DNA from: Candidatus Giovannonibacteria bacterium RIFCSPHIGHO2_12_FULL_44_22 | GTDB lineage: Bacteria > Patescibacteriota > Minisyncoccia > UBA11713 > 2-01-FULL-45-33 | Reading direction: 5' to 3' | NCBI GenBank assembly: GCA_001778695.1 | Contig: MFHU01000003.1 | Location: 1,521-65,520, forward strand | Length of the DNA stretch: 64,000 nt | Shown here: in pieces, positions 15,561 through 64,000 of the stretch | Numbering within the stretch: the stretch's first letter is position 1 | Layout of the letters: every line of letters starts with the position of its first letter | Notes under the pieces: generated by a model | Told to the model about the DNA's origin: nothing | Seen by the model: only the letters and a program-made list of their open reading frames with translations | Databases searched by the model: none | Position numbers and translations under genes: made by a program

Positions 15561-15563
15561 AAA

Positions 15564-17315: not shown

Positions 17316-17319
17316 ACCT

Positions 17320-18543: not shown

Positions 18544-18546
18544 TTT

Positions 18547-18993: not shown

Positions 18994-19012
18994 TTTATGG
19001 TAAAATAACATC

Positions 19013-19489: not shown

Positions 19490-19492
19490 AAT

Positions 19493-19960: not shown

Positions 19961-19970
19961 ATCTTGAAAC

Positions 19971-32188: not shown

Positions 32189-32263
32189 GGTGCCTATAGC
32201 TTAGTGGTAAAGCACCGCTCTGTGGCAGCGGTAACGAGGGTTCGATCCCCTCTAGGCACCCCA
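32189..32263 (+). tRNA. tRNA-His (anticodon GTG), with encoded G-1 and CCA
   Basis: G-GTGCCTATAGCTTAGTGGTAAAGCACCGCTCTGTGGCAGCGGTAACGAGGGTTCGATCCCCTCTAGGCAC-C-CCA. Anticodon loop CTGTGGC. The 3' end overlaps the recombinase stop. Confidence 0.88.
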
Positions 32264-33865: not shown

Positions 33866-33997
33866 AAAAACTTGAAGGGACGGTCTGGTTCACCCAATCA
33901 CTTGCTCCGAAGAGTAGCCTACTGGCAGACCGCCCCTTAAAGGACAGTAAGCAATAAAAAATCTTCGGACATTTATTGTGATTAAAGGTGAACATTA

Positions 33998-35224: not shown

Positions 35225-35229
35225 ATTTA

Positions 35230-35529
35230 TTAAATTATTTTGTTGTCCTTAAATTTCTTGGAATCCTTCTGCGGTGTTTCTTGGCGGTCTCTTTGCACCG
35301 CTTCGTATTCTTCTTGGGTTATCGGCTTATAAACCAGCTCAACTAGACGCATCAGCTTAATCCCTTTTTCAAGGGCTTCTTTCCGGCTGATTTCTTTTCC
35401 GAATTGCTCTTTATAGAGCGTTTGGAATTTGGTTATCTGTGCGTCTGACAGCATATACAGCCATTCTAAAAAACCCTCTAAGCCAAAAAGAGCCAGAGGG
35501 TTTGAGAGGGTTTTTGGGCATTCAGACAC
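35230..35529 (-). CDS. hypothetical small helical protein
   Basis: 99-aa ORF between the rep-like and large hypothetical genes. Confidence 0.35.
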   Translation of the reverse strand: MSECPKTLSNPLALFGLEGFLEWLYMLSDAQITKFQTLYKEQFGKEISRKEALEKGIKLMRLVELVYKPITQEEYEAVQRDRQETPQKDSKKFKDNKII

Positions 35530-35595
35530 AAAAAATAAAAGGGCTTTTTGTCAGCCCCTCAATACCGAAACAAGCTGTTGTCCAAAATTTACTCT

Positions 35596-37239: not shown

Positions 37240-37394
37240 AGTGATAGTAATTTAACAAACTAAGCCATTTTTCTCAATGTTGTCCCGAATTTTGAGCTAT
37301 TACTTCAATTTGCGCCCAAATAGTGATATTTTACATTTATACAATTAAATATGGTTATTGCCTAACCCTCGTGAATTAAAAACTCCGAGGTATG

Positions 37395-37537
37395 GCAGAA
37401 AAACTGTTCAGGTATATTAAGCTCTTCGTCCAGAGCACCTGAACAGTCATATTCCGAAAGGAGTATGGGTGGCGAAAGCCATCGCTGGCGGAGAGCTTTG
37501 TGTTTTCCGCCAACAAGGCATAAATAAAACTGTTCAG
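37395..37537. promoter_or_regulatory. three copies of a CTGTTCAGGT 10-mer (two direct, one inverted) upstream of mod
   Basis: AAAACTGTTCAGGTAT at about 37400 and again immediately before the mod ATG. ACCTGAACAGT (inverted) at about 37440. Candidate operator or phase-control sites. Confidence 0.35.
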
Positions 37538-37539
37538 GT

Positions 37540-39147: not shown

Positions 39148-39148
39148 T

Positions 39149-41398
39149 ATGGCTTTTCAACTTACAAAATATCAAGACAAAGCGGCCCGCGAACTTCTGA
39201 TTAAATCAGAAGAACTTTTGAGCACTGGCAATCCCAAGACACTTGTCTTTAAGGCACCAACTGGCTCTGGAAAAACAATAATTATAGCAGAGTTTTTGAC
39301 ACGATTTTCGGATGACCACGACCATTCGCCTTGTGCGTTTATATGGGCCGCTCCTCACAAATTGCACGAGCAGAGCAAGGAGAAACTTGAGCAGTATTTT
39401 GAAAACACGCGAGCAATGGAATGTTCGTTTTTTGAGGATTTGGACGACCGGCAAATCGGCGAAAACGAAATCTTATTTTTTAACTGGGAGAGCATCCGGC
39501 GCGAAGACCTTATTTATATCCGAGAAAACGAACAGGACAATAACCTTTCAAGCGTTCTTGAACGAACACACAAAGCTGGACGAAAAATTATTTTAATTAT
39601 TGATGAAAGCCATCTCCACGCACCTGCCGAAACTTCTCAAAATCTCAAAAACGATATTGCGCCTGACCTGATTATAGAAACATCCGCAACCCCAACCCTT
39701 CCCGGAGACGATAATGTTACGGTGCAAATTGAAGCTGTTAAAGCGGAAGAAATGATAAAGAAAGCAGTGATACTCAATGAGGATTTCAAAAGCGTGGTGC
39801 GCCGTGGCCGCACCGAAACCATAAAGAGCGAGCTTGCCGGTAGTACCGATGATACTGTTTTGCGAGAAGCGTTGAAGAAGCGCGAGGAGCTTGTCCGAGC
39901 ATATAAAGCAGAAGGTGTTGCCGTAAATCCATTACTTCTTATCCAGTTGCCGAACCGTATTGGTCAGGCGGAGGAAGACCGCCAAACAATAATTGTACGG
40001 ACTCTCAATGATAAGCACGGCATCAGTGTTGAAAATGGCAAACTTGCCTTCTATATTTCAGAAAATAAAGAGAACTCTGAAAATATCTCTCGGAATGATA
40101 ACGAAGCCGAGGTTTTGATATTCAAGCAGGCCGTTGCACACGGCTGGGATTGCCCGCGAGCGCATATACTTGTGCTCTTTCGTGAGTGGCATAGCCCTGT
40201 GTTTTCCATTCAAACGCTCGGCCGGATTATGAGAGTGTCGGAGCCGGAGCACGGGTATTACGATAACGACATACTCAATTTTGCTTATGTTTATACGAAC
40301 ATTGACGACATTGTAATTCAAGAGGACATCGGTGGCGGATATGTAGTGATACATACCAGCAAACGAATTGCGAAATACAAGTCGGTTGAATTGCCATCGG
40401 TTCACCGCAAACGGCATCGTGAGCAGACGCGCTTGAGCCCGCTTTTTACACGGCTATTTCTTATGGAAGCGCAAAAATATACAAGCAAGGATAAAAAGAA
40501 AAAGGGCCTTGAAAAGATAATAAAACCCAAAGGCCAGCGTGTTCAGCAGGCGTTTATTTCTGACTGGAAAGCAGAAAACATAGATACTATTGCAGGCGAG
40601 CGCATACAAGCAGATGTGCAGATTGAAAGAGCAAGCGATATGGACCTTCAAAGGTTGTTTGATTATTTTGTGCGCAAAAATCTCTCTCCGTTTCACCCCG
40701 AAGACCGGTCCGTGGGCCGTCTGAAAGAGTCAATCTATAAGTTTTTTGATAAAGAGATGAGAATGACGAGGGCCGAGCATTTCCGGGATATCATAAACAT
40801 TGTCTTGAGCGAAGATAACCGGCCGCATTTTGAGGCAGTGATAGATAGTGCCAAACGCGCCTATATTGCGACAGCAGAGAAACGAGAGAAAGAAATAGTG
40901 GAAGATGTTTGGGAAGTGCCGGAGCGTGTCGCTTTCGGAAAAGGATATGTTGAAGCAAAACCAAAAAAGAAAAAATCCGTAATGAAGCCGTTTTTTTCTG
41001 ACGAACGCTGGCAATCTGAAAAAGCATTTATTGACTTTTTGGATAAGCCGCGAAATGATGTATCGTGGTGGTTCAAAAATGGAGACCGAGATGCGACTTT
41101 CTTCGCCGTGCAGTATAAAGATGGCAATGACTCGGCCCCGTTTTATGTTGATTTCGTGGTTATGATGAAAGACGGGAGTATCGGGCTATTTGACCCACAC
41201 GGGCTTCATCTGGCCGATTTTGGTGCGAAATCAGATGGTCTGCGAGCATACATAGCCCACTTGAAGAAAAAGGGCCGCAAGGTATCCGGTGGTATTATTG
41301 CGAATACCAAACCCGATTATACCGGCCAGTGGATGGTCTATGAAGGCAACGGAAAAAACGCGCGAGAGGGCAACTGGGATAACTGGAAACAACTTTAA
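39149..41398 (+). CDS. res: Type III restriction enzyme Res subunit (SF2 helicase-nuclease)
   Basis: Walker A KAPTGSGKTII, DEAH-like IIDESH, further helicase motifs. Start immediately after the mod stop. Confidence 0.82.
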   Translation: MAFQLTKYQDKAARELLIKSEELLSTGNPKTLVFKAPTGSGKTIIIAEFLTRFSDDHDHSPCAFIWAAPHKLHEQSKEKLEQYFENTRAMECSFFEDLDDRQIGENEILFFNWESIRREDLIYIRENEQDNNLSSVLERTHKAGRKIILIIDESHLHAPAETSQNLKNDIAPDLIIETSATPTLPGDDNVTVQIEAVKAEEMIKKAVILNEDFKSVVRRGRTETIKSELAGSTDDTVLREALKKREELVRAYKAEGVAVNPLLLIQLPNRIGQAEEDRQTIIVRTLNDKHGISVENGKLAFYISENKENSENISRNDNEAEVLIFKQAVAHGWDCPRAHILVLFREWHSPVFSIQTLGRIMRVSEPEHGYYDNDILNFAYVYTNIDDIVIQEDIGGGYVVIHTSKRIAKYKSVELPSVHRKRHREQTRLSPLFTRLFLMEAQKYTSKDKKKKGLEKIIKPKGQRVQQAFISDWKAENIDTIAGERIQADVQIERASDMDLQRLFDYFVRKNLSPFHPEDRSVGRLKESIYKFFDKEMRMTRAEHFRDIINIVLSEDNRPHFEAVIDSAKRAYIATAEKREKEIVEDVWEVPERVAFGKGYVEAKPKKKKSVMKPFFSDERWQSEKAFIDFLDKPRNDVSWWFKNGDRDATFFAVQYKDGNDSAPFYVDFVVMMKDGSIGLFDPHGLHLADFGAKSDGLRAYIAHLKKKGRKVSGGIIANTKPDYTGQWMVYEGNGKNAREGNWDNWKQL

Positions 41399-41400
41399 CT

Positions 41401-41586
41401 TTGAATATGGCAACATTTGGTAGCGGGACGCCGGAGAGCCCGGACAACAAATCTATAAGAGCCCAGCTTGAGGAGCTCAAGAAGCTCAACTCATCTACTG
41501 CTTCTTACAACAAGCTCATCATTGGCATAGCGTTGTCCACGCTTATCGTGAGCATTGTCGGCGTGATAATTGCGCTATGGAAATAA
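41401..41586 (+). CDS. small single-TM protein
   Basis: 61 aa with a C-terminal TM helix. Tightly packed after res. Confidence 0.3.
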   Translation: MNMATFGSGTPESPDNKSIRAQLEELKKLNSSTASYNKLIIGIALSTLIVSIVGVIIALWK

Positions 41587-42098
41587 ACAAAGAAACAATA
41601 AAAGAGTATGCCAATAGATACGATAGGCGTAGTAAGGGAACAGATGATGAGATTGCGGCAAATGAAATAACGAAATGGTTTAAGACGCATAGGTATTTGG
41701 ACAAGGAAAGATTTATGAGAGTTGCGCTTTGGAAGTCAAAAAGACCACAAAGGCATTACGCAAGCAATGACAATGCGATTGTTAAAGAAATCACCCAGTT
41801 TAGTTTGGCAACGAAAAACGAGGAGGTAAGATTAAAAGTCCTTTTTGCCATCAACGGCGTGTCATATCCTATCGCCTCGGTCATTCTTCACTTCGCATTT
41901 CCAGATAAATACCCGATATTGGATTTCAGAGTGATATGGTCTCTCGGTATAAAACAGCCCAAAAGCTATAATTTTGCTTTTTGGCAAAAGTATTGTGATA
42001 ATGTAAGGGATATTTCAAAAGAAATGGGCGAAAGCATAAGAACGGTGGATAAAGCTCTATGGGAGTATTCAAAAGAGCATCAAACTAAAGAGAAATAA
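41577..42098 (+). CDS. hypothetical protein with helix-hairpin-helix-like segment (OGG/EndoIII-like pattern)
   Basis: LKVLFAINGVSYPIASVILHFAFPDKYPILDFRVIWSLGI resembles the LxGVGxxTAxxIL...PVDxHV HhH-GPD pattern. Tentative. Confidence 0.35.
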   Translation: MEINKETIKEYANRYDRRSKGTDDEIAANEITKWFKTHRYLDKERFMRVALWKSKRPQRHYASNDNAIVKEITQFSLATKNEEVRLKVLFAINGVSYPIASVILHFAFPDKYPILDFRVIWSLGIKQPKSYNFAFWQKYCDNVRDISKEMGESIRTVDKALWEYSKEHQTKEK

Positions 42099-42266
42099 TG
42101 ATGTAATCACTTTGCATTTCTTCCCAATAGTAATTGAAGATATATATTTAGATTGGGAATCAAAAATAAAAGAAGATGGGACTATTGAAGTTTTGCTCAC
42201 CAATTTTTATAAGCCATAAATAACACAATTAGTGCGAGATGGTAAATGGTATAGTATGTTAGAAAT

Positions 42267-42710
42267 ATGACCAAATTATTAAAGGAGCAATTTGTTCAGG
42301 ATTGTATTTCTAACTATTTATCAAAACTCGGCTACCACAAACAAGAGCCGAAAGGATTAAGAGAGCACGGAGTTGATATAAAAGTTAAGCATAAAAATTT
42401 CGGCAGGTATTATTTGGTTGAGGTTAAGGGAGACCCCGGTAAAGACGTAAAATCACCGGGCGGTAGCAGGAATAGCTGTATGAACTCGGCAATCGGGCAA
42501 ATTATTACCAGAATGCATACCAACCGCAAAAGGGGCTATAAATATGGTTACAAATACGGCATCGGTTTCCCGATTTCTTTTAAGGAAAGAGTTATTAACA
42601 AAATACCCTACGATGTCTGCGACAAACTAAATCTTAATTTGTTTTTTGTTCACCCGTCTGGGGTAGTTGAAGCATATAATGATAAAAAATTAAAAGCATT
42701 ACAAAAATGA
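42267..42710 (+). CDS. hypothetical PD-(D/E)xK-like nuclease-fold protein
   Basis: HGVDIKVKH...YYLVEVKGD gives a D...E-x-K arrangement typical of restriction-endonuclease-like folds. Tentative. Confidence 0.35.
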   Translation: MTKLLKEQFVQDCISNYLSKLGYHKQEPKGLREHGVDIKVKHKNFGRYYLVEVKGDPGKDVKSPGGSRNSCMNSAIGQIITRMHTNRKRGYKYGYKYGIGFPISFKERVINKIPYDVCDKLNLNLFFVHPSGVVEAYNDKKLKALQK

Positions 42711-42988
42711 TTTCCAATTCAAACGAAGAAAAATCAGCGAAGAAAACCGATGATTTTAAGTTGAGCGATTTGTGTAAGTGCGGACATACATACGGCTCGC
42801 ATCCCTTCCTAAAAATACGCACCGAAGGCTTTCCAATGCCGCCCGCTTATTCTTGCATTAGTTGTAAATGCCAAAAATTTGAACTAAGTAGCAAGTATAT
42901 TACCGAAGACCGGAAACAAGAACTGCAACAGCTATTAGTAAATGCCGTGAAAGAAAAGCTAAGGAACAAGAGTGAAAATAACGAGTAG
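42707..42988 (+). CDS. Cys-rich small protein (putative zinc-binding)
   Basis: CKCGH...CISCKC arrangement. 93 aa. Confidence 0.4.
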   Translation: MISNSNEEKSAKKTDDFKLSDLCKCGHTYGSHPFLKIRTEGFPMPPAYSCISCKCQKFELSSKYITEDRKQELQQLLVNAVKEKLRNKSENNE

Positions 42989-43027
42989 CGGTAGAAAAAC
43001 TTTTTAGAACAAGTTAGATTTGGCTAT

Positions 43028-43225
43028 ATGAAAACAATCAAAGAAATATCGGAAAAGTGGGTTAAAAACTCACTTCGGGCATATCTTGAGGGCGAAAAAG
43101 ACCTCAAGTGGATTCAAGGCATTTTACGAGGAATGAGCAAGAACGAAGTAATGGGGCTTTTAAGCTCTCTACAATATGGCTTACCGGAGAGGCGCAATGA
43201 ATTGAATCAATGGCTCAATACTTAG
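43028..43225 (+). CDS. hypothetical small protein
   Basis: 65-aa ORF in a co-directional tight array. Confidence 0.3.
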   Translation: MKTIKEISEKWVKNSLRAYLEGEKDLKWIQGILRGMSKNEVMGLLSSLQYGLPERRNELNQWLNT

Positions 43226-43237
43226 TTAAGATAATTT

Positions 43238-43510
43238 ATGTTTTTCAAAAGCAGATTAAAGGAAATAGAAGAGGAAATTCTGAGAAAACGGAATGGTATT
43301 TTTGGGGATGGCACTGTCAATTTTGGCAATTCTTTTAATGCACGAAAAACAGAAATTGAGGCACAGGTTGCGATTTTAGAAGCGGAAAGACGTTTCATTA
43401 TAGATAGGAGAAATGGTTGGAAACCGAAAGTTATTTGGGATGTGCTTGTCCCAATTGTCGTAGCTGTGGCAACTGCTTATATCGTGGCCACTTTCGTCTC
43501 CGGGGCTTAA
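43238..43510 (+). CDS. hypothetical protein with C-terminal TM anchor
   Basis: 90 aa. Coiled-coil N-terminus, then TM helix (VIWDVLVPIVVAVATAYIVATFV). Confidence 0.35.
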   Translation: MFFKSRLKEIEEEILRKRNGIFGDGTVNFGNSFNARKTEIEAQVAILEAERRFIIDRRNGWKPKVIWDVLVPIVVAVATAYIVATFVSGA

Positions 43511-43689
43511 TAGTTTATGACCAAACATTACGACAAAGAAACGAGCGAAGAAATAGACGAAAATATCCACGAGCTGATGGAAAGCCACAATTTAGACAAA
43601 GATGAAGCGGAAAAAGTCCAAGAAATTATGGACGATTACGACTTGGACGAAAGCGATGCCGTTGAACTCAAAGATGACTTATAAAATTT

Positions 43690-43965
43690 ATGTTAAATTT
43701 CAGCCCCAAAAAATGCCTTTGTAATGTTGCCGATTGCGGCAAATGTTTAACTCTGGGGTGCACAAATGATAGCTGTAGCACTCATCGCATAGTAACTAAA
43801 TGGCGATACAGAAAACACCTTTTGGAAAGTTTAACAAACAAGATTGAAAAAATGCGTGACAGCAAACCTGAAAAAGAATTGGCGACTTTACGAAAAGATA
43901 TAAAAACTTGCAAAGAAGAAGTTAAAAGGTTGGGCGAGGTTATGGGTATGAAAAATAATGAGTAG
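43690..43965 (+). CDS. zinc-ribbon small protein
   Basis: N-terminal CLCNVADCGKCLTLGCTNDSCSTH (six Cys plus His), then a coiled coil. Confidence 0.4.
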   Translation: MLNFSPKKCLCNVADCGKCLTLGCTNDSCSTHRIVTKWRYRKHLLESLTNKIEKMRDSKPEKELATLRKDIKTCKEEVKRLGEVMGMKNNE

Positions 43966-44015
43966 CGGGATGAGGCTGAGTAGTAAAAATTACAAAAACC
44001 TGATATTTATTAAAT

Positions 44016-44612
44016 ATGCCTTTGGACAATTCTCAAAATCAAGCAACAAACGCAATCTATGTCTTTATTGACGCATCCAATTTGTGGGAGGCATTCAAGG
44101 CGAAGGGTAGATTTTTAGATTTTGAGAAGACGACAAAGTATATTAAAGAAAAGTTTAGCGGAACATCTATAAAAGCTTTTTACTATACGGCTTATCCAGC
44201 AGAGGGCACAAGAAATTACAGTTTGGACGGCAAACATAAATTTTTTACATACCTAAAAAAGGCATTGGGATTCGCAGTTATAAAGAAGGAGCTGAAAAGA
44301 ATCAGTGTAATAAATGAGCACGGCGAAGCAATAGAAGAAAAAGGCAATATGGATGTAGAGATGACCATAGATGCTATGCTTCATTTCAAAAAATATGACA
44401 CGGCGATTTTCTTTACTGGAGATTCCGATTTTCTGGCACTTGTAACATATTTGAAAAATCACGGGAAAAAAGTTTTTATATTTTCTTCAGAAAACAATGT
44501 GTCGCAGGAGTTGAGAACTGGCGCAAATGGCTATACCGATATTCTGGATGTTGATGGTGTCTGGGGCAAAGAGTTGAAACACAGAGCCGAATTAGAAAAG
44601 GAGGGTAGATAA
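44016..44612 (+). CDS. NYN-domain (LabA-like PIN-fold) putative RNase
   Basis: IYVFIDASNL, VEMTIDAM and FTGDSDF acidic residues match the NYN/LabA pattern. Confidence 0.78.
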   Translation: MPLDNSQNQATNAIYVFIDASNLWEAFKAKGRFLDFEKTTKYIKEKFSGTSIKAFYYTAYPAEGTRNYSLDGKHKFFTYLKKALGFAVIKKELKRISVINEHGEAIEEKGNMDVEMTIDAMLHFKKYDTAIFFTGDSDFLALVTYLKNHGKKVFIFSSENNVSQELRTGANGYTDILDVDGVWGKELKHRAELEKEGR

Positions 44613-45877: not shown

Positions 45878-47311
45878 TCACCGTCCTCCTTTGTTGGTAT
45901 TGATTCCAATGAAATGCGGTTGATCGGCCGCTTCCACTTTCCTTTGGTTACTATCATTTCCATCGGCAATTCTTTTGCCGGTGTATGCCTCTACTCTTTT
46001 TCGGACATCTTCTTTTCTATCTATAAATTCTTGGCGGGGTTTTTTCCCACACCACCTAGGAAGAATGCCCCTTTGCATTTCCAACCACTCATTCGCTAAA
46101 GATTGAGGAACTTTAAGCTGGGTCATCTTCGCGGAGCTCCTGCCATTTTCTGCGACTATGACAGGAAAAGATATTGACACCAGAGCATCCTCCGTGTCTT
46201 CAGGAAACGGTACTTTGATCACCGGTTTGAGCCGGACGATTTCCGGCGGCTTTTCTTTTTTAGCCACGCCAACAACTCCAGTTTTTTCAATTGGCTGATC
46301 AGATGGCGGTTCCTTTGCTACAACGATCATGGCAACCCATTTCTTGCGGTCCTCAACTTGTTCGCGAGTGCTTACGTGAAATTCTACATTCGGCCTTCTG
46401 TCAGGATTTATAGCCTCTTTCACTTGGCCCGTAACTTTTTCAACTTCTCCCACAGACCAATTTCCATGAAATAAAATTAGTCCGCTTTCGGCCTTTTTCA
46501 CTATCTCTGTATCCTGATATCTGTTCTGAACGAGCTCTTTTCCTATTATTTTAGGATCGCACGGGGCGTCTTTATCTTCAAAGAAAAAGCTCCCGTACTG
46601 GACGTAATGTCCAAGAGCCAGGCGCGTCGTATAATCTTTAAGATCGGAATTTATGCCGTCTCCGACCTCCAGAATTAATTCGCGGAGAAAAACCATTACC
46701 AGCTGTTCTAAACAGCTTTTATTGATTATATTCCACGCTTCGCTTACCAATACATCCCTGTTCTCGATGTTATTATTGTATATCACAATCGTCGGAACAG
46801 CGTCTCGTATCGTATTTAAAGCGTCGTTGGCCCTGTTCATCCTGCCTTCAAATGGAAAGGGCATTGTGACTATTGTCAGCATGGGGATCTCTTTATCTTT
46901 CGCCATTTGCGCCACCGCTGGAACACCGCCAGTGCCCGTTCCGCCTCCGAGTCCCGCAACAATCAAGAGCGTTTGCAGTTTGTCTAAAAAATGCGATATC
47001 TCTTCTCTATCTTCTTCGATGGCTTTGGCTCCTATTTGCGGATCGCCACCAGCGCCCAGGCCTTTCGTTAGTTCATAGCCCAATTGGCACATGTACAACC
47101 TCTCGCTATTTTCCCATCCCTCGCAGCCTTTATTCTCTTGAAACAGTTTTAAATGTCCGGCATCTGTGTTCGCGGCCAAAATGTGCACGTGAGGATGATT
47201 TTCCGGCGGGAATGAATTAATTATTAGGCCGGCGTTGTTCACGCCGCACCCGCCAATAAACGCTATTCCTAAATTAACCGGACCTGTTTTTAGTTCTTTG
47301 TTTGGCTCCAT
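45878..47311 (-). CDS. ftsZ: FtsZ/tubulin-family GTPase with long charged C-terminal extension
   Basis: IGGCGVNNAG, NTDAGHL, AGLGGGTGTGGVPAVAQMAKD (tubulin signature GGGTGTG), T7-loop region. About 160 extra C-terminal residues rich in K/E/P. Confidence 0.8.
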   Translation of the reverse strand: MEPNKELKTGPVNLGIAFIGGCGVNNAGLIINSFPPENHPHVHILAANTDAGHLKLFQENKGCEGWENSERLYMCQLGYELTKGLGAGGDPQIGAKAIEEDREEISHFLDKLQTLLIVAGLGGGTGTGGVPAVAQMAKDKEIPMLTIVTMPFPFEGRMNRANDALNTIRDAVPTIVIYNNNIENRDVLVSEAWNIINKSCLEQLVMVFLRELILEVGDGINSDLKDYTTRLALGHYVQYGSFFFEDKDAPCDPKIIGKELVQNRYQDTEIVKKAESGLILFHGNWSVGEVEKVTGQVKEAINPDRRPNVEFHVSTREQVEDRKKWVAMIVVAKEPPSDQPIEKTGVVGVAKKEKPPEIVRLKPVIKVPFPEDTEDALVSISFPVIVAENGRSSAKMTQLKVPQSLANEWLEMQRGILPRWCGKKPRQEFIDRKEDVRKRVEAYTGKRIADGNDSNQRKVEAADQPHFIGINTNKGGR

Positions 47312-48382: not shown

Positions 48383-48888
48383 ACTTCTGCGACGCCTGTT
48401 TTTTTATTTACATATCTGGCCAAAACGAAAAGCAGGCTGGAAAGGCGGTTTAAATATGCGAGCGACGCCGGACTTATTTTTTCTTTTACGGATGCCACGC
48501 GCCTTTCGGCTTTCCGCGCGAGCGCCCTTGCGTAGTCTAGGCGCGCCGAAAGAGGATTGCCTCCGGGGATTGTAAATTTAGTTATTTGTCCGACGAAGCC
48601 ACCGAATTCATCAATTGTTTTTTCCAAATTTTTAGTTTTATCTTCGGCTAATGCCATATTTTTAGCCCCTCCGAGCTCAGCTTGTATTATAAACAAATTT
48701 TCCTGCGCGTTTTCCAGCGCGCTTTTAATGTTATCTCCGTCGGCCAGCGATTTACATACCCCCAAATACGAATTTAACTCATCTAGCGCGCCCAAAGCTT
48801 CAAACCTCGGGTCGGTTTTTGGTATTCTGTCGCCTGAACCGAAAAGTGCGGTTTGTCCGTTATCTCCTTGCCCTGTATAAAATCTCAT
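48343..48888 (-). CDS. PduO-type ATP:cob(I)alamin adenosyltransferase family protein
   Basis: [18 protein letters not shown]...DELNSYLG...[15 protein letters not shown] matches the Cob_adeno_trans pattern. Confidence 0.78.
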
Positions 48889-48903
48889 ACTATTATATTC
48901 TAT

Positions 48904-50229
48904 ATGAATAAAAAATATTTTATAGCTTTAGCTATCGCCAGTTTCCTTGTGGCTAGCGCGTCTTATGCGCACGATGTGGATTTGGGCGTTGACCCGGGCA
49001 CTTTACCCACAAGCCCATTTTATTTCGTTAAAGAGTGGCGGCGCGCTATCCAGCGGGTGTTTACTTTCAACGCCATCAAAAGGGCGGATTTGGAGCTCAA
49101 TATTTTAAACGAACGGGCGGCCGAGGCGCAAAAAATAAGCGAGGACGACTCGCAAAATATTGAGGCGGTGAAAAGCGCGCTCCAAAACTATATAGAGGCG
49201 CATAACCGCTTGGCTAATAAATTGAAGGCGCTTAAAGAAACCTCTCAAAATCCAAATATGGACAAATTGCTTGATAAGCTGGTTGAAAAAACCGCGAAAC
49301 ACAAAAAACTTTTTGAAGACGTCTCTAAAGAGTTTGATGATAACGACGAAATCAAAAAGCTCACGAAGTTCGCGCAAGACAACTTGGATGAAACAGTTTC
49401 TTTGGCCTCGGAAAAGGACGAAGAAAAAAAATTCTCCGAGCGCCTAAAGAAAGACGCCGAAGAGGAGATTGATGACAAAGAAGACGCTTACGAAAAAGTC
49501 GCGGAGCAGATAAAAGAGGCGGAGGAGAAGATAAATGAGCTTGAAAAGAAAATAATAAAGAAAGCGTCATCAACGCCGGAGCTTGCTACAAACTTGGCGG
49601 CGAAGCATTTAATGTCTGCTAAAGAGCATCTAGGCGCGGCTAAAAAAGCTTTTGAAGAAAAGAAATATGGCGAGGCATTCGGTCAGGCGCGCTCGGCAGA
49701 GGTTTTGGCCAGAAACGGAATGAAAGTTTTGGAACGTGAAGAAGAAGAGGAAGAAGAAAAAGAAGAAATTAAAGACGATAAAGATGATGAAGATTTTAGC
49801 AATGTAGTTTGCACTCAAGAGTTTAAGCCGGTTTGCGGGGCGGATGGAAAAACTTATTCCAATTCTTGCCATGCTAGAGTCGCGGGAATAACTATAAAGC
49901 GCGAAGGAGAATGCGCAGTTGCGCCCAGTCCGGTTTCTAGGGACGAATTGATGAGTGTTTTTGTGGTAATTGATGAAAGCGGAAAATTTTCGCCGAGGGA
50001 AATTAAAATAAAAAAAGGCGGGAAAGTTACCTGGGTCAATAAAAGCCAGAATCGAGTTTGGCCGGCGTCCAACCCGCATCCAATTCACACTGACTACTCC
50101 GGCTTTGACGCTTTGCGCGGCTTAGCTGCCGGAGAATCATATTCATTCACCTTTGAAAAAGTTGGCTCGTGGGGTTATCACGACCATTTCAACCCCGGCA
50201 CGAGAGGCGAGGTAAAAGTTGTTGAGTAA
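48904..50229 (+). CDS. secreted protein with coiled-coil region, Kazal-type inhibitor domain and C-terminal cupredoxin-like domain
   Basis: Signal peptide [22 protein letters not shown]. Kazal signature [22 protein letters not shown]...GEC. C-terminus [17 protein letters not shown]...[15 protein letters not shown] is cupredoxin-like. Confidence 0.6.
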
Positions 50230-60205: not shown

Positions 60206-60874
60206 ATGAATTGCATCGGCATTATTATGGACGGCAACCGGCGATGGGCAAAAGAAAAAAACCTCCCGCAATTTGCTGGCCACGAAGCAGGTTATCAAAA
60301 ATTACTTGAAGTTCTAGGGTGGGCGCGCGAAGCCGGAGCGCGCAATTTGATTGTCTACGCGTTTTCCACGGAAAACTGGAACCGTCCCGATGAAGAAGTT
60401 TCATATCTAATGAAGCTGATTGAGATGGTTATTGAAGAGCGCGTCCAAAAAATCGCGGAAGAAAAGGTGCGGGTTCGGTTCATTGGGGAACTTGATAAAT
60501 TTCCCGAGCGCGTTAGGAAAAGCATGAGAGTGCTTGAAGAAAAAACTGCAATTTTTAAAGAGTACACTTTGGGAATCGCTGTTTCTTACGGAGGAAAAGC
60601 GGAAATCATCTCCGCTGTAAAGCGCCTCCCGCAGAATATTATGCAAAATTTGACCGAAGAAGAATTTTCAAAATATTTATGGACCGGCGATTTTCCGGAT
60701 CCGGAGCTTATCATACGCACCGGCGGGCAAAAACGCCTTTCTAATTTTCTTTTGTGGCGGGCCGCTTATTCCGAACTTTATTTTACCGATACCTATTGGC
60801 CGGCACTTTCTAAAGAAGAATTTTTATCGGCAATAAAATTTTTCGCCGGAACCCAGCGCAATTTCGGGAAATAA
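60206..60874 (+). CDS. uppS: undecaprenyl-diphosphate synthase (isoprenyl transferase)
   Basis: IIMDGNRRWA...LIVYAFSTENW...LRTGG..RLSNFLLWRAAYSELYF motifs. Confidence 0.9.
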   Translation: MNCIGIIMDGNRRWAKEKNLPQFAGHEAGYQKLLEVLGWAREAGARNLIVYAFSTENWNRPDEEVSYLMKLIEMVIEERVQKIAEEKVRVRFIGELDKFPERVRKSMRVLEEKTAIFKEYTLGIAVSYGGKAEIISAVKRLPQNIMQNLTEEEFSKYLWTGDFPDPELIIRTGGQKRLSNFLLWRAAYSELYFTDTYWPALSKEEFLSAIKFFAGTQRNFGK

Positions 60875-60886
60875 AAATTTACCATA

Positions 60887-60967
60887 TGCCGGAGGAGAGA
60901 TTCGAACTCTCACGCCTTTCGGCACTCGATCTTAAGTCGAGCGTGTCTGCCATTTCACCACTCCGGC
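60887..60967 (-). tRNA. tRNA-Leu (anticodon TAA)
   Basis: Reverse complement GCCGGAGTGGTGAAATGGCAGACACGCTCGACTTAAGATCGAGTGCCGAAAGGCGTGAGAGTTCGAATCTCTCCTCCGGCA. Anticodon loop CTTAAGA. Confidence 0.85.
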
Positions 60968-61043
60968 AAAATTAGTGCGGAGAAAAAATTAACTATTCGC
61001 ATCCCGGTTGGCCTAACATGCCTGGCCCGCAACGGTTGAAGGT

Positions 61044-61286
61044 TCAAGTATTAAATAGCGTATTCCTGACTGCCGTAACAATTCCCCACATTGAGAGCAT
61101 CACAAAAAGCCCGACCAATCCGTAGATTATATATTTTTTCCCTTCCGCCAGTTTCTTTTCATCTCCTGAAGCAAGGATATATTGTATCACTCCCCACAAA
61201 AATGCAAGAGTGGCGACAATAAATAAAAGTCCAATCAGCTGATTGAGCACTAGGGTTATATTGCCGAAGAGTTTGGATATAGTCAT
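61044..61286 (-). CDS. VirB2/TrbC-like T4SS-pilin-family small membrane protein (paralog 1)
   Basis: 80 aa. Two hydrophobic helices flanking W-GVIQYILASGDEKKLAEGKK. The pattern recurs in the adjacent paralogs. Confidence 0.5.
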   Translation of the reverse strand: MTISKLFGNITLVLNQLIGLLFIVATLAFLWGVIQYILASGDEKKLAEGKKYIIYGLVGLFVMLSMWGIVTAVRNTLFNT

Positions 61287-61287
61287 A

Positions 61288-61581
61288 TTAGGTGAAAAAA
61301 TTTTGTAATATGGCGATAATGGCTTTTACGGAAACCATAATCAAAAGGCCAAAAAGCCCCCATACAATATGTTTTTTCCCTCTGGCGCGAGTGGCGTAGC
61401 TTATGCTCCCGGATGAAGAAGTCTGGCCTGCCGAGGCTCCGGCGATAAACTCCACCACGCCGTAAAGAAACACCACCCCGCCCAAGACCAGAAGCAAATT
61501 AGTGATAGGGTCTAAAATGGATTGTTGTATAGTGACGATTAGTTCGTCAATGGTTTTAGCAGATGCTATGGCAATCATCAC
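61288..61581 (-). CDS. T4SS-pilin-like small membrane protein (paralog 2)
   Basis: 97 aa. Similar architecture (LLVLGGVVFLYGVVEFIAGASAG...HIVWGLFGLLIMVSV). Confidence 0.45.
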   Translation of the reverse strand: MMIAIASAKTIDELIVTIQQSILDPITNLLLVLGGVVFLYGVVEFIAGASAGQTSSSGSISYATRARGKKHIVWGLFGLLIMVSVKAIIAILQNFFT

Positions 61582-61593
61582 TTTGTTTGGTGA

Positions 61594-61944
61594 TTATGGC
61601 GAAGGCCTTACGTCTCCAGGACCCGGCGGGATTATTCCTCCTCCTACTCCGAATTGGGAAACCAGCGCTCGGACTACTCCCCAGATCGCCACCATAACGA
61701 AAAGGCCGATCAAGCCAAAAACTATAAATCTGCGCCCTTCGGTTAATTTTTCCTCGTCACCGCTCGCGGTAATATATCTGATAACGCCCCAAAGGAAAAC
61801 AATGGTGGCGATAATCATAAGAATCGGAATAACCCTGTTCAAAATGATTTCCGTTTGTTGAAGAATTGAGGTCACATCTGCGGCGTAGGCGAAAAGCGGC
61901 GCCAGCAATGCTGTTGAAAGCGAAATCTTAGCTAATGTTTTCAT
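61594..61944 (-). CDS. T4SS-pilin-like small membrane protein (paralog 3) with signal peptide and Gly/Pro-rich tail
   Basis: 116 aa. Signal peptide, FLWGVIRYITASGDEEKLTEGRRFIVFGLIGLFVMVAIWGVV, closely similar to paralog 1. Confidence 0.55.
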   Translation of the reverse strand: MKTLAKISLSTALLAPLFAYAADVTSILQQTEIILNRVIPILMIIATIVFLWGVIRYITASGDEEKLTEGRRFIVFGLIGLFVMVAIWGVVRALVSQFGVGGGIIPPGPGDVRPSP

Positions 61945-62011
61945 AATACTAATCTACTAATTTATACTAATGCTACTAATAATTTTTTTACTAACTCGAC
62001 CTTTTTATATT

Positions 62012-62437
62012 TTATAATTTTTCGGCGAAATTTACTATAGCCGAGGCGATGGCATAAGCGCCCACTAAAATAGCCGTGCCCACTACTGTCCAGTAAAATG
62101 TGCCTTTGGCTTTTTTAAGCTGATCGTCGTTGCCTCTCGCGGTCACAAAAAGCAAGCCCGACCAGATAAGAAAAACCGTCGCTATGGGGATGCCTATTTT
62201 GGTAAGAAGCTGGGCGAATTTTTCCACAACCTGCCCGAAAGTCCCGGCGTTTATGGGATTAACCAGCATATATTCTTCCGCGTAAGCCGTGCCTATGTTT
62301 AACATAGCATAAATTATAGAAAAAAGGAAGATTTTTGTTTTGTTTATAAACATGGTTTTATTATAACTCATTTTTATAGTTATTATAATTAAATTTAAGG
62401 CCAAACAACATGTACGTGGCTTGTCCCCCCGTCGCAA
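62012..62437 (-). CDS. T4SS-pilin-like membrane protein (paralog 4)
   Basis: 141 aa. Signal peptide, FLIWSGLLFVTARGNDDQLKKAKGTFYWTVVGTAILV. Same motif arrangement. Confidence 0.45.
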   Translation of the reverse strand: MRRGDKPRTCCLALNLIIITIKMSYNKTMFINKTKIFLFSIIYAMLNIGTAYAEEYMLVNPINAGTFGQVVEKFAQLLTKIGIPIATVFLIWSGLLFVTARGNDDQLKKAKGTFYWTVVGTAILVGAYAIASAIVNFAEKL

Positions 62438-63270
62438 TTAGAATATCGTATAGTGCCACCTGAATTTTCACAATAAGCTTGCCCACCAAGACCGCTAATT
62501 TGATTTCTTAATTGTAGAAAATCTGATGGCGTGTTGTTACGCGGAGTGCCGCCAGTTGGTGTTGCTGGTACTAAATCTACAACCGGCTTGCCTGACCCAT
62601 GCTCTTTATGACCGACTTCAGTTCCTCCTATTATAAAAAAGTTTAATCCTGTAGTTTTTAGATCCGTTAAGTGTTGAGCCGTTGAAATTGGCAATCCCAC
62701 AACACTAGTGCAGCCAGGGTCTGATTGAATATGGCAATTACTTCCGCTCTGATTTATAACTAATATGCCCGCTTTATTTAGAAAAGTCTCACCTTCAGTT
62801 TCGGTGCTGAATACCGCTCCAATTGGCTTTGGAATTGTAGTAATTCCTCCGCTCGGGGTTCCGCCGATTGGGGCGGTTTGTATTGCTACTGGGCATTGTT
62901 CCATTTCATTCCAGCTAATAATACCCTTCCCTTCGGCTAAAGTTTGAATTATGGAATTGACTATTAGCCATCCACCGAAAGCAATGAAAATCCCGACTAT
63001 TGAAGATGTTAAGATTTTTTTGCCTTTTTCAATTTGCGCTGGATTTCCGGAGCTAGTAAGCCATACAATTCCTCCAGCCAAGAGGGCAATCACTAAAATT
63101 GGAGTTGCCAATTGAAATAATAAAAAACTTACAATACGGCTTGACAGCAGCCATAAATGGCAAGGCGTGCACGGGATAAATTGCGTGCCGCAAGGAACAA
63201 GCGGTAGAGCGAAAACTGGCAATGCCAAAATCAATAAAAGACCGCTGATTAATAAAATTTTATTTTTCAT
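62395..63270 (-). CDS. pilin-like N-terminal module fused to a Gly/Thr-rich C-terminal domain (paralog 5, candidate tip or adhesin subunit)
   Basis: 291 aa. N-terminus ILVIALLAGGIVWLTSSGNPAQIEKGKKILTSSIVGIFIAFGGWLIV repeats the pilin-like pattern. C-terminal 180 aa domain with Cys pairs and GGT repeats. Confidence 0.45.
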   Translation of the reverse strand: MKNKILLISGLLLILALPVFALPLVPCGTQFIPCTPCHLWLLSSRIVSFLLFQLATPILVIALLAGGIVWLTSSGNPAQIEKGKKILTSSIVGIFIAFGGWLIVNSIIQTLAEGKGIISWNEMEQCPVAIQTAPIGGTPSGGITTIPKPIGAVFSTETEGETFLNKAGILVINQSGSNCHIQSDPGCTSVVGLPISTAQHLTDLKTTGLNFFIIGGTEVGHKEHGSGKPVVDLVPATPTGGTPRNNTPSDFLQLRNQISGLGGQAYCENSGGTIRYSNCDGGTSHVHVVWP

Positions 63271-64000
63271 TTTAATTCCATAAACCTGGCTTTAGCTTTT
63301 TCCAAAGAATCCCGCAAAGTGAATCGCCCAATAGCCATGTCTTCTATTAAAGTTCTGAAAATTTGGTCGGCGCGCTGGGGGTCGGGATTCGGCCAAAGCT
63401 TAAGCGCCAAAACCGAATTCGCGAAAACCGAGAGTATGGACTCTTTTTGATAAACCGGCAGGACATCGCGCCGCGGAGAAACATTTCCGGTTTTATCCGC
63501 ATAGCTGGCTGAATTTTCCGCGCTAGCCAAAAATTGTATGAATTGCCAGGCTTGCAGTTGCGCTTTTGAAGCCTTTGGCACGGCCAGGGCGAAAATTTCC
63601 CCGCCGGTCACGGGGCGCTGGGCCCCTGCCAATTGCGGCAAGAGCGCCACGGAAAAAGACAGATGCGCGTTTTTATTTTTTATTTCATTATATTCCGAAA
63701 TTTTGCCGAAATACATAGCCAGTTTTCCATTTATGAAAGCATCTCTGGCTTCCGGCAGCGCCCCCGACCAACTTTGAGAATTTTTCTTAGGATTCGCGAA
63801 ATCGATAACGAACTGCAAAGAAGATTCGGCAGGATGAAGCGTAACTTCGCCGATGTTAAGCGGTTCGTTTAGCGTGATTTCTCCGGAATCATTTATAATT
63901 TTTTCTCCGGATTGCAAAAAAAGCGTGGTTAAAATAAGCGGGGCGTTTTGTATGTTTTCCGCTCTGCCCAAAGCCGCTCCGGATATCACGATATTTCCGG
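63267..64000 (-). CDS. ABC-transporter extracellular solute-binding protein (C-terminal part; gene continues beyond the window end)
   Basis: C-terminal region typical of family-1 solute-binding proteins (GKLAMYFG, FALAVPKASK, AWQFIQFL). N-terminus lies outside the window. Confidence 0.55.
   Translation of the reverse strand, partial: GNIVISGAALGRAENIQNAPLILTTLFLQSGEKIINDSGEITLNEPLNIGEVTLHPAESSLQFVIDFANPKKNSQSWSGALPEARDAFINGKLAMYFGKISEYNEIKNKNAHLSFSVALLPQLAGAQRPVTGGEIFALAVPKASKAQLQAWQFIQFLASAENSASYADKTGNVSPRRDVLPVYQKESILSVFANSVLALKLWPNPDPQRADQIFRTLIEDMAIGRFTLRDSLEKAKARFMELK

What the first reader, a model, noticed from the sequence alone, without database searches (positions are those of the whole stretch)
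61044..63270. Tandem array of five VirB2/T4SS-pilin-like small membrane proteins, the last fused to a large extracellular domain
Five consecutive minus-strand genes share a hydrophobic helix, then W-G-(V/I)-x-YI-x-(S/A)-G-(D/N)-(D/E)-x-K, then a second helix. Some have signal peptides. Paralogs 1 and 3 are near-identical over the core. The fifth carries a 180-aa Gly/Thr/Cys-containing C-terminal domain, as expected for a tip or adhesin subunit. Such arrays suggest antigenic or functional diversification of a conjugative-type or competence-type pilus. In episymbiotic CPR this could mediate host contact. No cognate VirB4 or VirB6 gene lies in this window.
Basis: partly seen in the sequence, partly recalled or inferred. 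Interest (0 to 1): 0.6.

Follow-up and report, generated by a model that had tools for sequence, protein, structure and literature searches.

The report
Secretion-pilin gene array with enzyme-tipped lead pilin
Five neighbouring genes in a tiny groundwater bacterium (Candidatus Giovannonibacteria) do encode VirB2-like secretion-system pilins, an arrangement already described for this bacterial group, but the large extra domain on one of them looks like a zinc cell-wall-cutting enzyme, not an adhesin.

Summary
Five co-directional minus-strand genes (61044-63270) all match the VirB2-type pilin families PF18895/PF04956, and each has two hydrophobic helices around a Lys/Arg-rich loop.

The kind is known. 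Tandem arrays of 2-11 VirB2-like pilins are published for Patescibacteria, and one such array is essential in Southlakia epibionticum. The last 11 kb of the window are identical to GCA_001778835.1. A published table lists that assembly as VirB4-positive. No VirB4 lies in the window or within 10 kb of the array.

- **The 291-aa gene is first in the operon, not last.** Its C-terminal domain is a divergent Hedgehog/DD-peptidase (LAS) zinc-peptidase fold with conserved H221, H224, D232, H285 and H287. No Pfam model covers it. It has 1,734 cluster representatives, and 118 of the top 147 are fused to a pilin domain. In other lineages the fusion sits about 1.1 kb downstream of virB4.
- **A sugar-binding-protein-like gene is coupled upstream.** It overlaps the lead pilin start by 4 nt. 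Its orthologue sits immediately upstream in 15 of 18 related loci from species-representative genomes.
- **The five paralogs are old.** Each has a 1:1 orthologue in another species (61-77% identity for the four short pilins), which argues against antigenic variation.

Verdict: a new variant of a known kind, of moderate interest.

The parts
63267..64000 (-). 3' part of a 429-aa membrane-anchored SBP_bac_1/SBP_bac_8-like (sugar-binding-protein-like) gene. It continues beyond the window end, and its stop overlaps the g5 start by 4 nt (ATGA).
   Evidence: Pfam SBP_bac_8 55.1 bits and SBP_bac_1 39.7 bits. The full gene is seen in L001 at 8715-10004. The closest solved relatives are sugar-binding proteins, e.g. 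4r9f at 1e-16. Orthologues (28-87% identity) sit immediately upstream of the lead pilin in 15 of the 18 species-representative genome loci, and also in complete genome CP066687.1.
62395..63270 (-). g5, the lead gene of the array: signal-peptide-like N-terminus, Cys-rich N-segment, VirB2-like helical hairpin, Pro/Gly/Thr linker and LAS-fold zinc-peptidase-like domain (291 aa).
   Evidence: PF18895 29.5 bits. 100% identical to a Giovannonibacteria protein. Full-length AF2 model has pLDDT 75.9 with helices 36-72 and 77-113.
62932..63165 (-). Pilin hairpin of g5 (residues 36-113): two long helices flanking the loop SSGNPAQIEKGKK.
62398..62823 (-). C-terminal domain of g5 (residues 150-291), Hedgehog/DD-peptidase (LAS) fold. 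Motif residues: H221 (62608-62610), H224 (62599-62601), D232 (62575-62577), H285 (62416-62418), H287 (62410-62412).
   Evidence: Domain model pLDDT 89.3, pTM 0.86. Foldseek PDB hits are Hedgehog N-domains, BaLdcB/VanY-like, Ply500, LysB4, MepA and LdcB, with probability up to 0.98. BFVD hits are Peptidase M15/M15B, DD-carboxypeptidase and endolysin. The motif residues are invariant or over 90% conserved. hhalign places them on Shh H135/H141/D148/H181/H183.
62012..62353 (-). g4, a 113-aa pilin paralog with a signal-peptide-like N-terminus. It is the most TrbC/VirB2-like member.
   Evidence: PF04956 40.2 bits and PF18895 33.8 bits. Orthologue is 70% identical.
61594..61944 (-). g3, a 116-aa pilin paralog with a signal-peptide-like N-terminus and a Gly/Pro-rich C-tail.
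   Evidence: PF18895 35.9 bits. Orthologue is 77% identical.
61288..61581 (-). g2, a 96/97-aa divergent pilin paralog with a Ser-rich insertion in the loop and no signal peptide.
   Evidence: PF18895 25.0 bits, below the 26.6 cutoff. The family HMM built here scores 61 bits. Orthologue is 64% identical.
61044..61286 (-). g1, an 80-aa minimal pilin paralog without a signal peptide. It is the last gene of the operon.
   Evidence: PF18895 40.7 bits. Orthologue is 61% identical.

Best explanation
This is a chromosomal operon, read on the minus strand as SBP-like gene, then g5, g4, g3, g2 and g1. It supplies the VirB2-like pilin set of the Patescibacteria-type type IV secretion system. The ATPase and channel genes of that system lie elsewhere in the genome.

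Shown directly:
- The family assignment of the five genes.
- The two-helix topology with a K/R-rich loop.
- The tight gene spacing: a 4-nt overlap, then gaps of about 41, 67, 12-15 and 1 nt.
- The 1:1 orthology of all five genes across species.

Inferred by homology with VirB2/TraA:
- The proteins insert as hairpins with both ends outside the cell.
- A VirB4-driven machine extracts them from the membrane and assembles them into a filament or conduit through the cell wall.
- The five conserved paralogs have distinct, non-redundant roles, such as major and minor subunits.

The lead pilin g5 carries a zinc peptidase of the Hedgehog/DD-peptidase (LAS) fold on a flexible linker outside the membrane. 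I infer that it cuts peptidoglycan peptides. It would act either as the local wall-opening enzyme of the system (the VirB1 role) or, if g5 primes assembly and ends up at the tip, on the host's wall.

The coupled sugar-binding-like protein is a conserved partner of unknown role. Glycan recognition at the cell surface is my guess.
For: - Pfam matches for all five genes, and the two-helix topology.
- The same five-gene order behind the same SBP gene is found in complete genome CP066687.1 and in five other Giovannonibacteria-type genomes. The SBP orthologue sits directly upstream of the lead pilin in 15 of the 18 species-representative genome loci.
- LAS assignment: a confident domain model; top fold hits in the PDB and the viral structure library are LAS enzymes; the only PDB sequence-profile hits are Hedgehog N-domains, aligned on the zinc motif; D232 is invariant and H221, H224, H285 and H287 are over 90% conserved across 147 cluster representatives; hhalign puts the motif on the Shh catalytic residues.
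- Link between the peptidase domain and T4SS: 118 of the top 147 representatives carry PF18895. One fusion lies two genes after VirB4, next to a weak TrbL_3 (VirB6-family) match and a TraC-like gene. In metagenome loci, 15 of 21 pilin-peptidase fusions have VirB4 1.0-1.25 kb upstream on the same strand, and the other six have at most 2.1 kb of upstream sequence (VirB4 verified).
- In S. epibionticum, a Hedgehog/DD-peptidase-domain protein (SEML1_0007) sits next to VirB4 in the same locus as six PF18895 pilins. That pilin series is reported essential.
- VirB4 is listed as present in this assembly.
Against: - No VirB4, VirB6 or VirD4 lies in the window or within 10 kb on either side. The link to a T4SS in this genome rests on a published table, not on my own inspection.
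- No PF18895 protein has been shown to form a pilus.
- g2 falls just below the Pfam cutoff.
- g1 and g2 lack signal peptides.
- The fold matches are modest (TM about 0.45, E 0.002-0.02).
- No sequence model of any known peptidase family matches the C-domain.
- g5 is only 22-43% identical (local BLASTP segments) to the virB4-linked fusions and belongs to a different pilin subfamily.
Confidence: 0.68

Rival explanations
1. The pilin-like hairpins are only two-helix membrane anchors and no filament is made. On this view g5 is a membrane-tethered housekeeping peptidoglycan peptidase for the bacterium's own wall growth or division. The four small paralogs are accessory membrane proteins unrelated to secretion.
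For: - The array is unlinked to virB4 and sits among housekeeping genes. In Giovannonibacteria these are ftsA and ftsZ upstream and uppS downstream; in other Paceibacteria gyrA lies upstream.
- PF18895 domains are widely used as N-terminal modules of 250-820-aa proteins with varied extracellular domains.
Against: - The same fusion family is strictly virB4-linked in other lineages: all 28 loci with at least 4.5 kb of upstream sequence have VirB4.
- g4 matches TrbC/VirB2 itself.
- Short PF18895 pilins are reported essential together with the T4SS in S. epibionticum.
- Five conserved short paralogs are hard to explain as anchors of nothing.
Confidence: 0.17
2. The array is a variation cassette. 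On this view the multiple pilin paralogs diversify rapidly for antigenic variation or for switching between host strains, as proposed for Bartonella and Anaplasma VirB2 arrays.
For: Low within-array identity of 23-51%. The literature suggests this idea for Patescibacteria arrays.
Against: - Copy number, order and 1:1 orthology are fixed across at least seven genomes.
- Short-pilin orthologues are 61-77% identical, like neighbouring housekeeping proteins.
- There are no DNA repeats or gene-conversion tracts.
Confidence: 0.08
3. The locus is a lysis or bacteriocin-type cassette. On this view the small two-helix membrane proteins act as holin-like pore formers that release the peptidase.
For: Small two-transmembrane proteins sit next to a cell-wall peptidase domain. 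The fold resembles phage M15 endolysins.
Against: - No holin family matches, whereas pilin families do.
- No PHROG matches the peptidase domain.
- The peptidase is itself fused behind a signal-peptide-like N-terminus and a hairpin.
- Chromosomal synteny is conserved across Paceibacteria and there are no phage genes nearby.
Confidence: 0.03

Closest known systems
VirB2-like pilin arrays of Patescibacteria (S. epibionticum SEML1_0014-0019; the 441 arrays catalogued by Quinonero-Coronel et al. 2025, PMC12102498)
   Same: Tandem PF18895/TrbC-type genes, 2-11 per array, with low mutual identity (published mean 25%, maximum 54%; here 23-51%). They are chromosomal and occur in a monoderm lineage without a relaxase-type conjugation context.
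   Different: Here the array is more than 10 kb from any virB4 and is headed by a coupled SBP-like gene. Its first pilin is fused to a peptidase domain. I found none of these three points in the four papers I read. The published arrays are said to be most abundant in Microgenomatia and Saccharimonadia, whereas this one is in Paceibacteria.
VirB2 / TrbC / TraA conjugative pilins of diderm T4SS (Pfam PF04956)
   Same: Small size, a signal peptide in some members, two hydrophobic helices and a basic inter-helix loop. g4 scores above the PF04956 cutoff.
   Different: The host has no outer membrane. No VirB5, VirB7, VirB9 or VirB10 context is present. There are five paralogs rather than one. Pilus formation is unproven.
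T4SS-associated Hedgehog/DD-peptidase proteins of Patescibacteria (SEML1_0007 next to VirB4 in S. epibionticum) and the pilin-peptidase fusions found here downstream of virB4
   Same: The same fold class of peptidase domain is tied to the T4SS. The same GGTExGHxxH...D...HxH motif is present.
   Different: g5 is not next to virB4. Its pilin part belongs to another subfamily (WLIVN versus YLILNTINP), and it is only 22-43% identical in local segments. SEML1_0007 is over 1,100 aa long, and no pilin domain is reported for it.
VirB1-type T4SS wall hydrolases (VirB1, PrgK, TcpG; SLT, lysozyme or CHAP domains)
   Same: The proposed role is the same: local opening of peptidoglycan for a T4SS.
   Different: The chemistry and fold differ: a zinc peptidase of the LAS fold rather than a glycosidase or cysteine peptidase. 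It is also covalently attached to a pilin module. Only 2 of 147 relatives also carry an SLT domain.
LAS zinc peptidases (VanY/LdcB, phage Ply500 and LysB4 endolysins, MepA, Hedgehog N-domain)
   Same: The predicted fold and the H...D...HxH metal and catalytic constellation.
   Different: No sequence model of M15, M23 or M74 matches. It carries extra conserved cysteines (C179, C187) and a GGTE motif. It is a separate, undescribed sequence family with 1,734 cluster representatives.
Mbov_0395 family pilin-like conjugal transfer proteins of Mycoplasma ICEs (NCBIfam NF045849)
   Same: g3 (32.9 bits) and g1 (25.1 bits) align end to end with this 80-residue monoderm ICE protein.
   Different: The scores are below the 40-bit cutoff, so this is a resemblance and not membership.

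Membership tests
VirB2/TrbC-type T4SS pilin (PF18895, PF04956) | Profile match above the curated cutoff | tested here: met
   g1, g3, g4 and g5 score above the PF18895 cutoff, and g4 above the PF04956 cutoff. g2 scores 25.0 against 26.6, just below.
VirB2/TrbC-type T4SS pilin (PF18895, PF04956) | Two hydrophobic helices separated by a short basic loop | tested here: met
   Hydropathy segments and alignment. The AF2 model shows a hairpin at residues 36-72 and 77-113 in g5.
VirB2/TrbC-type T4SS pilin (PF18895, PF04956) | Cleavable N-terminal signal peptide | tested here: inconclusive
   By inspection, g3, g4 and g5 have a positive n-region, a hydrophobic core and an A-x-A-like site. g1 and g2 and their orthologues have none. 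No signal-peptide predictor was available.
VirB2/TrbC-type T4SS pilin (PF18895, PF04956) | Encoded with VirB4/VirB6 machinery | tested here: not met
   There is none in the 64-kb window or within 10 kb on either side. VirB4 is listed as present elsewhere in this assembly in Table S1 of PMC12102498.
VirB2/TrbC-type T4SS pilin (PF18895, PF04956) | Polymerises into a pilus | not testable with these tools
   Needs microscopy or biochemistry.
Patescibacteria VirB2 array (as defined in PMC12102498) | 2-11 pilin genes in tandem or separated by one gene, with low mutual identity | tested here: met
   Five genes with gaps of 1-67 nt and 23-51% identity.
LAS / Hedgehog-DD-peptidase fold zinc peptidases | Fold | tested here: met
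   Domain model pLDDT 89.3. Foldseek probability is 0.82-0.98 to Hedgehog N-domains and 0.91 to VanY-like LdcB, and 0.85-0.99 to viral M15-type proteins. TM-scores are only about 0.4-0.5.
LAS / Hedgehog-DD-peptidase fold zinc peptidases | Metal and catalytic motif H-x(n)-D ... H-x-H | tested here: met
   H224-x7-D232 and H285-x-H287. D232 is invariant and the histidines are over 90% conserved in 147 representatives. They align to Shh H141, D148, H181 and H183.
LAS / Hedgehog-DD-peptidase fold zinc peptidases | Membership of a curated sequence family (Peptidase_M15, M23, M74, HH_signal) | tested here: not met
   No Pfam hit for g5. The best hit among 13 relatives is Peptidase_M15_4 at E 0.18. 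None appears among the 25 most frequent families listed for the 147 representatives. No PHROG matches.
LAS / Hedgehog-DD-peptidase fold zinc peptidases | Zinc-dependent peptidase activity | not testable with these tools
   Needs an enzyme assay.
VirB1-like T4SS lytic transglycosylase | SLT or lysozyme-like domain | tested here: not met
   No SLT match in g5. It is a possible functional analogue only.
ABC-transporter solute-binding protein (SBP_bac_1), for the upstream gene | Profile match | tested here: met
ABC-transporter solute-binding protein (SBP_bac_1), for the upstream gene | Adjacent permease and ATPase genes | tested here: not met
   Neighbouring genes are a methyltransferase, Fic and FtsZ, or gyrA in other lineages. 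No permease lies within 10 kb.
Type IV pilus (competence-type) pilins | N-terminal methylation motif (class III signal peptide) | tested here: not met
   No N_methyl match in g1-g5. The window's real type IV pilins at 18547-18993 and 19493-19960 do match it.
Holins | Match to a holin family | tested here: not met
   No holin family was returned for g1-g5 by Pfam or NCBIfam at E up to 1.

The most novel reading that the evidence does not exclude
The SBP-pilin operon may build a wall-piercing contact or feeding organelle. In this reading g5 primes assembly and rides at the tip, so its zinc peptidase cuts first through the bacterium's own wall and then through the host's peptidoglycan. The four short pilins form the shaft. 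The coupled sugar-binding-like protein recognises or captures host-wall glycan or muropeptide products. That would explain how these episymbionts, which lack VirB5 and mostly lack VirB1, breach two cell walls.
Probability: 0.12. Interest if true: 0.8.

Novelty: new variant of a known kind. Interest (0 to 1): 0.45.

Why it matters
Patescibacteria depend on a T4SS that is reported essential in the one genetically tractable species. How that system crosses cell walls, and what its unusual VirB2-like pilins do, is open.

This locus shows that a large, uncurated family of zinc-peptidase-like domains is covalently joined to pilin modules. The family has 1,734 cluster representatives at 50% identity. 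In other lineages it is positioned about 1.1 kb after virB4.

That gives a concrete candidate for the wall-opening activity said to be missing in most of these genomes. It is also directly testable with point mutants of H224, D232 and H287.

The locus also reveals a conserved SBP-pilin gene pair in Paceibacteria that I did not find in the T4SS survey (no 'solute', 'substrate-binding' or 'ABC' in its text). The fixed, slowly evolving five-paralog set argues for structural specialisation and against antigenic variation.

Tried and rejected
Structure libraries:
- Foldseek with the full-length g5 model was dominated by helical-hairpin noise from histidine kinases. Re-modelling the C-domain alone fixed this.

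Sequence searches on the C-domain:
- Pfam and PHROG scans gave nothing significant.

Locus and genome searches:
- A 60-sequence alignment (A5) was too diverse for the locus scan, so the 18-sequence alignment was used instead.
- To find this genome's own VirB4, I took a Pfam-verified type of VirB4 from a Jorgensenbacteria locus as the query. It returned 8,000 hits, of which only the best 120 were listed (77-100% identical). No listed hit was named Giovannonibacteria. VirB4 presence in this genome therefore rests on the published table.
- The virB4-linked contig of P0044 had no DNA on file. The shorter copies carry only the last 50-56 residues of VirB4.
- The cluster look-up gave almost no organism names.

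Region scans:
- The promoter and terminator scan of 60800-64000 was no better than shuffled sequence.
- The Rfam scan found only the tRNA in this region.

Hypotheses rejected:
- Holin or lysis cassette.
- Type IV (competence) pilins.
- Recent duplication or gene conversion.
Full report
**What is there**

Window positions 61044-63270 carry five co-directional minus-strand ORFs:
- g1: 61044-61286, 80 aa.
- g2: 61288-61581, 96/97 aa.
- g3: 61594-61944, 116 aa.
- g4: 62012-62353, 113 aa.
- g5: 62395-63270, 291 aa.

Transcription runs g5, g4, g3, g2, g1, with gaps of about 41, 67, 12-15 and 1 nt.

All five match Pfam PF18895 (T4SS_pilin). Four exceed the 26.6-bit curated cutoff, at 40.7, 35.9, 33.8 and 29.5 bits. 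g2 scores 25.0. g4 additionally exceeds the cutoff of PF04956 TrbC/VirB2 at 40.2 bits. No holin or other unrelated family competes.

Each protein has two hydrophobic segments around a short Lys/Arg-rich loop. g3, g4 and g5 begin with signal-peptide-like sequences, and g1 and g2 do not.

Within the array, identity is 23-34% except for g1 and g3 at 51% over 71 aa, so 'near-identical' is overstated. There are no DNA-level repeats between the genes. An HMM built from these sequences finds no further copy in the window.

**Where it comes from and what surrounds it**

g5 is 100% identical to a protein named for a Candidatus Giovannonibacteria genome from Rifle groundwater. The last 11 kb of the window are identical to GCA_001778835.1 contig MFIJ01000016.1.

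On the promoter side the operon is preceded by a 429-aa SBP_bac_1-like gene. Its stop codon overlaps the g5 start (ATGA). The window contains only its last 240 codons. Further out lie a methyltransferase, Fic, ftsZ and ftsA. Downstream lie tRNA-Leu, uppS, rbfA and infB.

No VirB4, VirB6 or VirD4 is present in the window or within 10 kb beyond it. The window does contain a separate type IV pilus cluster (PilB, PilC, PilM) with its own N-methyl-motif pilins. The array is therefore not a competence or type IV pilin set.

**It is a known kind**

Quinonero-Coronel et al. 2025 (PMC12102498) searched 3,035 Patescibacteria genomes with PF04956 and PF18895. They report 441 arrays of 2-11 VirB2-like genes, with mean identity 25% and maximum 54%.

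Wang et al. [quoted passage not shown] Their Table S2 annotates six PF18895 genes, SEML1_0014-0019, in that cluster.

Table S1 of the first paper lists GCA_001778835.1 as VirB4-positive. I could not verify this independently.

**The large domain is a predicted zinc peptidase, not an adhesin**

Eighteen close homologues share a C-terminal motif, GGTE-G-H-x2-H ... D ... H-x-H. Some read S-x-H-x2-G-x-A-x-D, the classic VanY/M15 signature.

Modelled alone, residues 145-291 give a confident structure with pLDDT 89.3 and pTM 0.86. Its best PDB matches are all Hedgehog/DD-peptidase (LAS) fold proteins:
- Sonic, Indian and Desert hedgehog N-domains (probability up to 0.98).
- The VanY-like carboxypeptidase BaLdcB (0.91).
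- The phage endolysins Ply500 and LysB4.
- MepA and LdcB.

Named matches in the viral structure library are 'Peptidase M15', 'M15B', 'D-alanyl-D-alanine carboxypeptidase', 'Endolysin' and tape-measure proteins.

A sequence profile of the domain hits only Hedgehog N-domains in the PDB, weakly (E 0.4-1.4), aligned on the zinc-binding H...D stretch. hhalign against the ShhN sequence places H221, H224, D232, H285 and H287 on Shh H135, H141, D148, H181 and H183, with pairwise E 7.5e-4.

Across 147 cluster representatives D232 is invariant. The four histidines, E218, C179 and C187 are over 90% conserved. The fold scores are modest (TM about 0.45), and no curated peptidase family matches by sequence. 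I therefore call it a new sequence family with a LAS fold and an intact catalytic constellation. I do not call it a member of M15.

**The peptidase domain belongs with pilin modules and with the T4SS**

An exhaustive profile search finds 1,734 cluster representatives at 50% identity with E up to 1e-3, and 583 with E up to 1e-10. Most are 260-340 aa with the domain at the C-terminus. Of the top 147, 118 carry PF18895 and 11 carry TrbC.

One relative, P0044, lies two genes after VirB4. Its cluster also holds a weak TrbL_3 (VirB6-family) match and a TraC-like gene, next to dnaA.

A metagenome scan returned 80 loci of a related pilin subfamily:
- 21 loci carry the peptidase fusion.
- 15 of those 21 have a VirB4 1.0-1.25 kb upstream on the same strand. 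Three VirB4s of this type were verified by Pfam.
- The other six have at most 2.1 kb of upstream sequence.
- All 28 loci with at least 4.5 kb upstream have VirB4.

In S. epibionticum the gene next to VirB4 (SEML1_0007) is annotated by structure as Hedgehog/DD-peptidase. The T4SS survey states that the peptidase and lysozyme homologues downstream of virB4 are essential there. It also states that most VirB2-bearing genomes lack VirB1.

g5 is a diverged member. It is 22-43% identical in local segments to the virB4-linked fusions and has a different pilin subfamily.

**Comparative anatomy of this array type**

A scan of species-representative genomes gave 18 loci.
- Six loci carry exactly one fusion followed by four short pilins: complete genome CP066687.1 and five of the 18 scan loci, four named Giovannonibacteria and one 'Parcubacteria group'.
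- One further scan locus has the fusion followed by five short pilins.
- Other Paceibacteria have 2-7 pilins whose lead pilin lacks the peptidase.
- In 15 of the 18 loci a roughly 430-aa gene sits immediately upstream, overlapping by 4 nt or separated by at most 18 nt in 14 of them.
- These genes are orthologues of the window's SBP-like gene (28-87% identical, all E below 1e-50). They are anchored by an N-terminal helix and are most similar to sugar-binding proteins.
- They have no permease nearby. The further neighbours are gyrA, ftsH and S1.

Against complete genome CP066687.1 the five genes are 1:1 orthologues, at 61, 64, 77, 70 and 44% local identity for g1 to g5. In a global comparison:

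| Protein set | Identity |
|---|---|
| Short pilins g1-g4 | 61-77% |
| Neighbouring housekeeping proteins | 60-85% |
| SBP-like protein | 67% |
| g5 pilin part | 70% |
| g5 peptidase domain | 41.5% |

The paralogs are ancient and individually conserved. This speaks for specialised roles and against antigenic variation.

**Most likely mechanism**

Shown: the operon structure, the family membership, the hairpin topology, the extracellular-type domain with eight cysteines, and the conservation.

Inferred by homology with VirB2/TraA: the proteins are membrane-inserted with both termini outside. A VirB4-driven T4SS encoded elsewhere, reported to be near the replication origin in Paceibacteria, extracts and assembles them.

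Inferred from fold and motif: the g5 domain is an active zinc peptidase acting on peptidoglycan peptides. It would serve as the wall-opening enzyme of the system. If the lead pilin primes assembly, it would sit as a tip enzyme facing the host.

The SBP-like partner is conserved but its role is unknown.

**Rivals**

- The hairpins are mere anchors and g5 is a housekeeping wall peptidase (0.17).
- The array is a variation cassette (0.08).
- The array is a holin or lysis cassette (0.03).

**Verdict**

The array itself is an ordinary member of a published class. The variant features are the peptidase-fused lead pilin, the coupled SBP-like gene and the virB4-unlinked housekeeping location. The scale of the uncurated pilin-peptidase family makes it moderately interesting. 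I rate it a new variant of a known kind, with interest 0.45.

Noticed in passing
window 14230-23869: A type IV pilus cluster. It holds a histidine kinase and response regulator (14230-15560), PilB (15564-17315), PilC (17320-18543), three small pilin-like ORFs of which two have N-methyl motifs (18547-19960), a 588-aa unknown protein and PilM (21734-22786). It is a second filament system, unrelated to the VirB2-like array.
   Followed up: partly
window 32190-44600: A possible integrated element beside tRNA-His. It holds a large serine recombinase (32252-33865), two unknown proteins of 408 and 547 aa with no Pfam match, a DNA methylase (37540-39147) overlapping a ResIII helicase (39092-41398), which looks like type III restriction-modification, and a NYN-domain protein (44016-44612). 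GC content dips to 0.37-0.41 in parts of this region.
   Followed up: partly
window 37359-37483 (+): A LOOT RNA (Rfam RF03000) at 91.2 bits against a gathering score of 46.4. It lies just upstream of the DNA methylase gene.
   Followed up: no
window 45878-47311 (-): A 477-aa protein with only a Tubulin/FtsZ GTPase domain (96.9 bits). The canonical ftsA-ftsZ pair lies just beyond the window end (L001 4695-7122), so this is a second, divergent FtsZ-like gene.
   Followed up: no
window 48853-50229 (+): A protein combining DUF5667 with Kazal-type serine protease inhibitor domains, which is unusual in bacteria.
   Followed up: no
metagenome loci L055, L059, L080, L109 and others: Many PF18895 pilin modules sit at the N-terminus of 250-820-aa proteins with C-terminal domains other than the peptidase, for example a Lamin Tail Domain in L080 6229-8661. 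They often occur as two or three in a row directly after virB4. The pilin module appears to be a general carrier for extracellular domains in these T4SS loci.
   Followed up: partly
L025 8574-9710, L026 1785-2924, L027 1982-3142, L029 2903-4051: A 378-386-aa gene with no convincing Pfam match follows the virB4-type pilin-peptidase fusion in the five loci checked (also in P0044's 62.9-kb contig). It lies near yidC, rnpA and dnaA.
   Followed up: no
proteins P0172-P0291: The 120 listed VirB4 relatives are 77-100% identical to a Jorgensenbacteria VirB4. The named ones include Jorgensenbacteria, Brennerbacteria, Paceibacterota and Patescibacteria group bacteria. This is much more conserved than the pilins or the peptidase fusions next to it.
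   Followed up: no
window 61044-61286 and 61594-61944: g1 and g3 align end to end with NCBIfam NF045849, the Mbov_0395 pilin-like conjugal transfer protein of Mycoplasma ICEs, at 25.1 and 32.9 bits (cutoff 40). This hints that monoderm MPF-FATA-type elements also have VirB2-like proteins, whereas the T4SS survey treats these as absent from that class.
   Followed up: no
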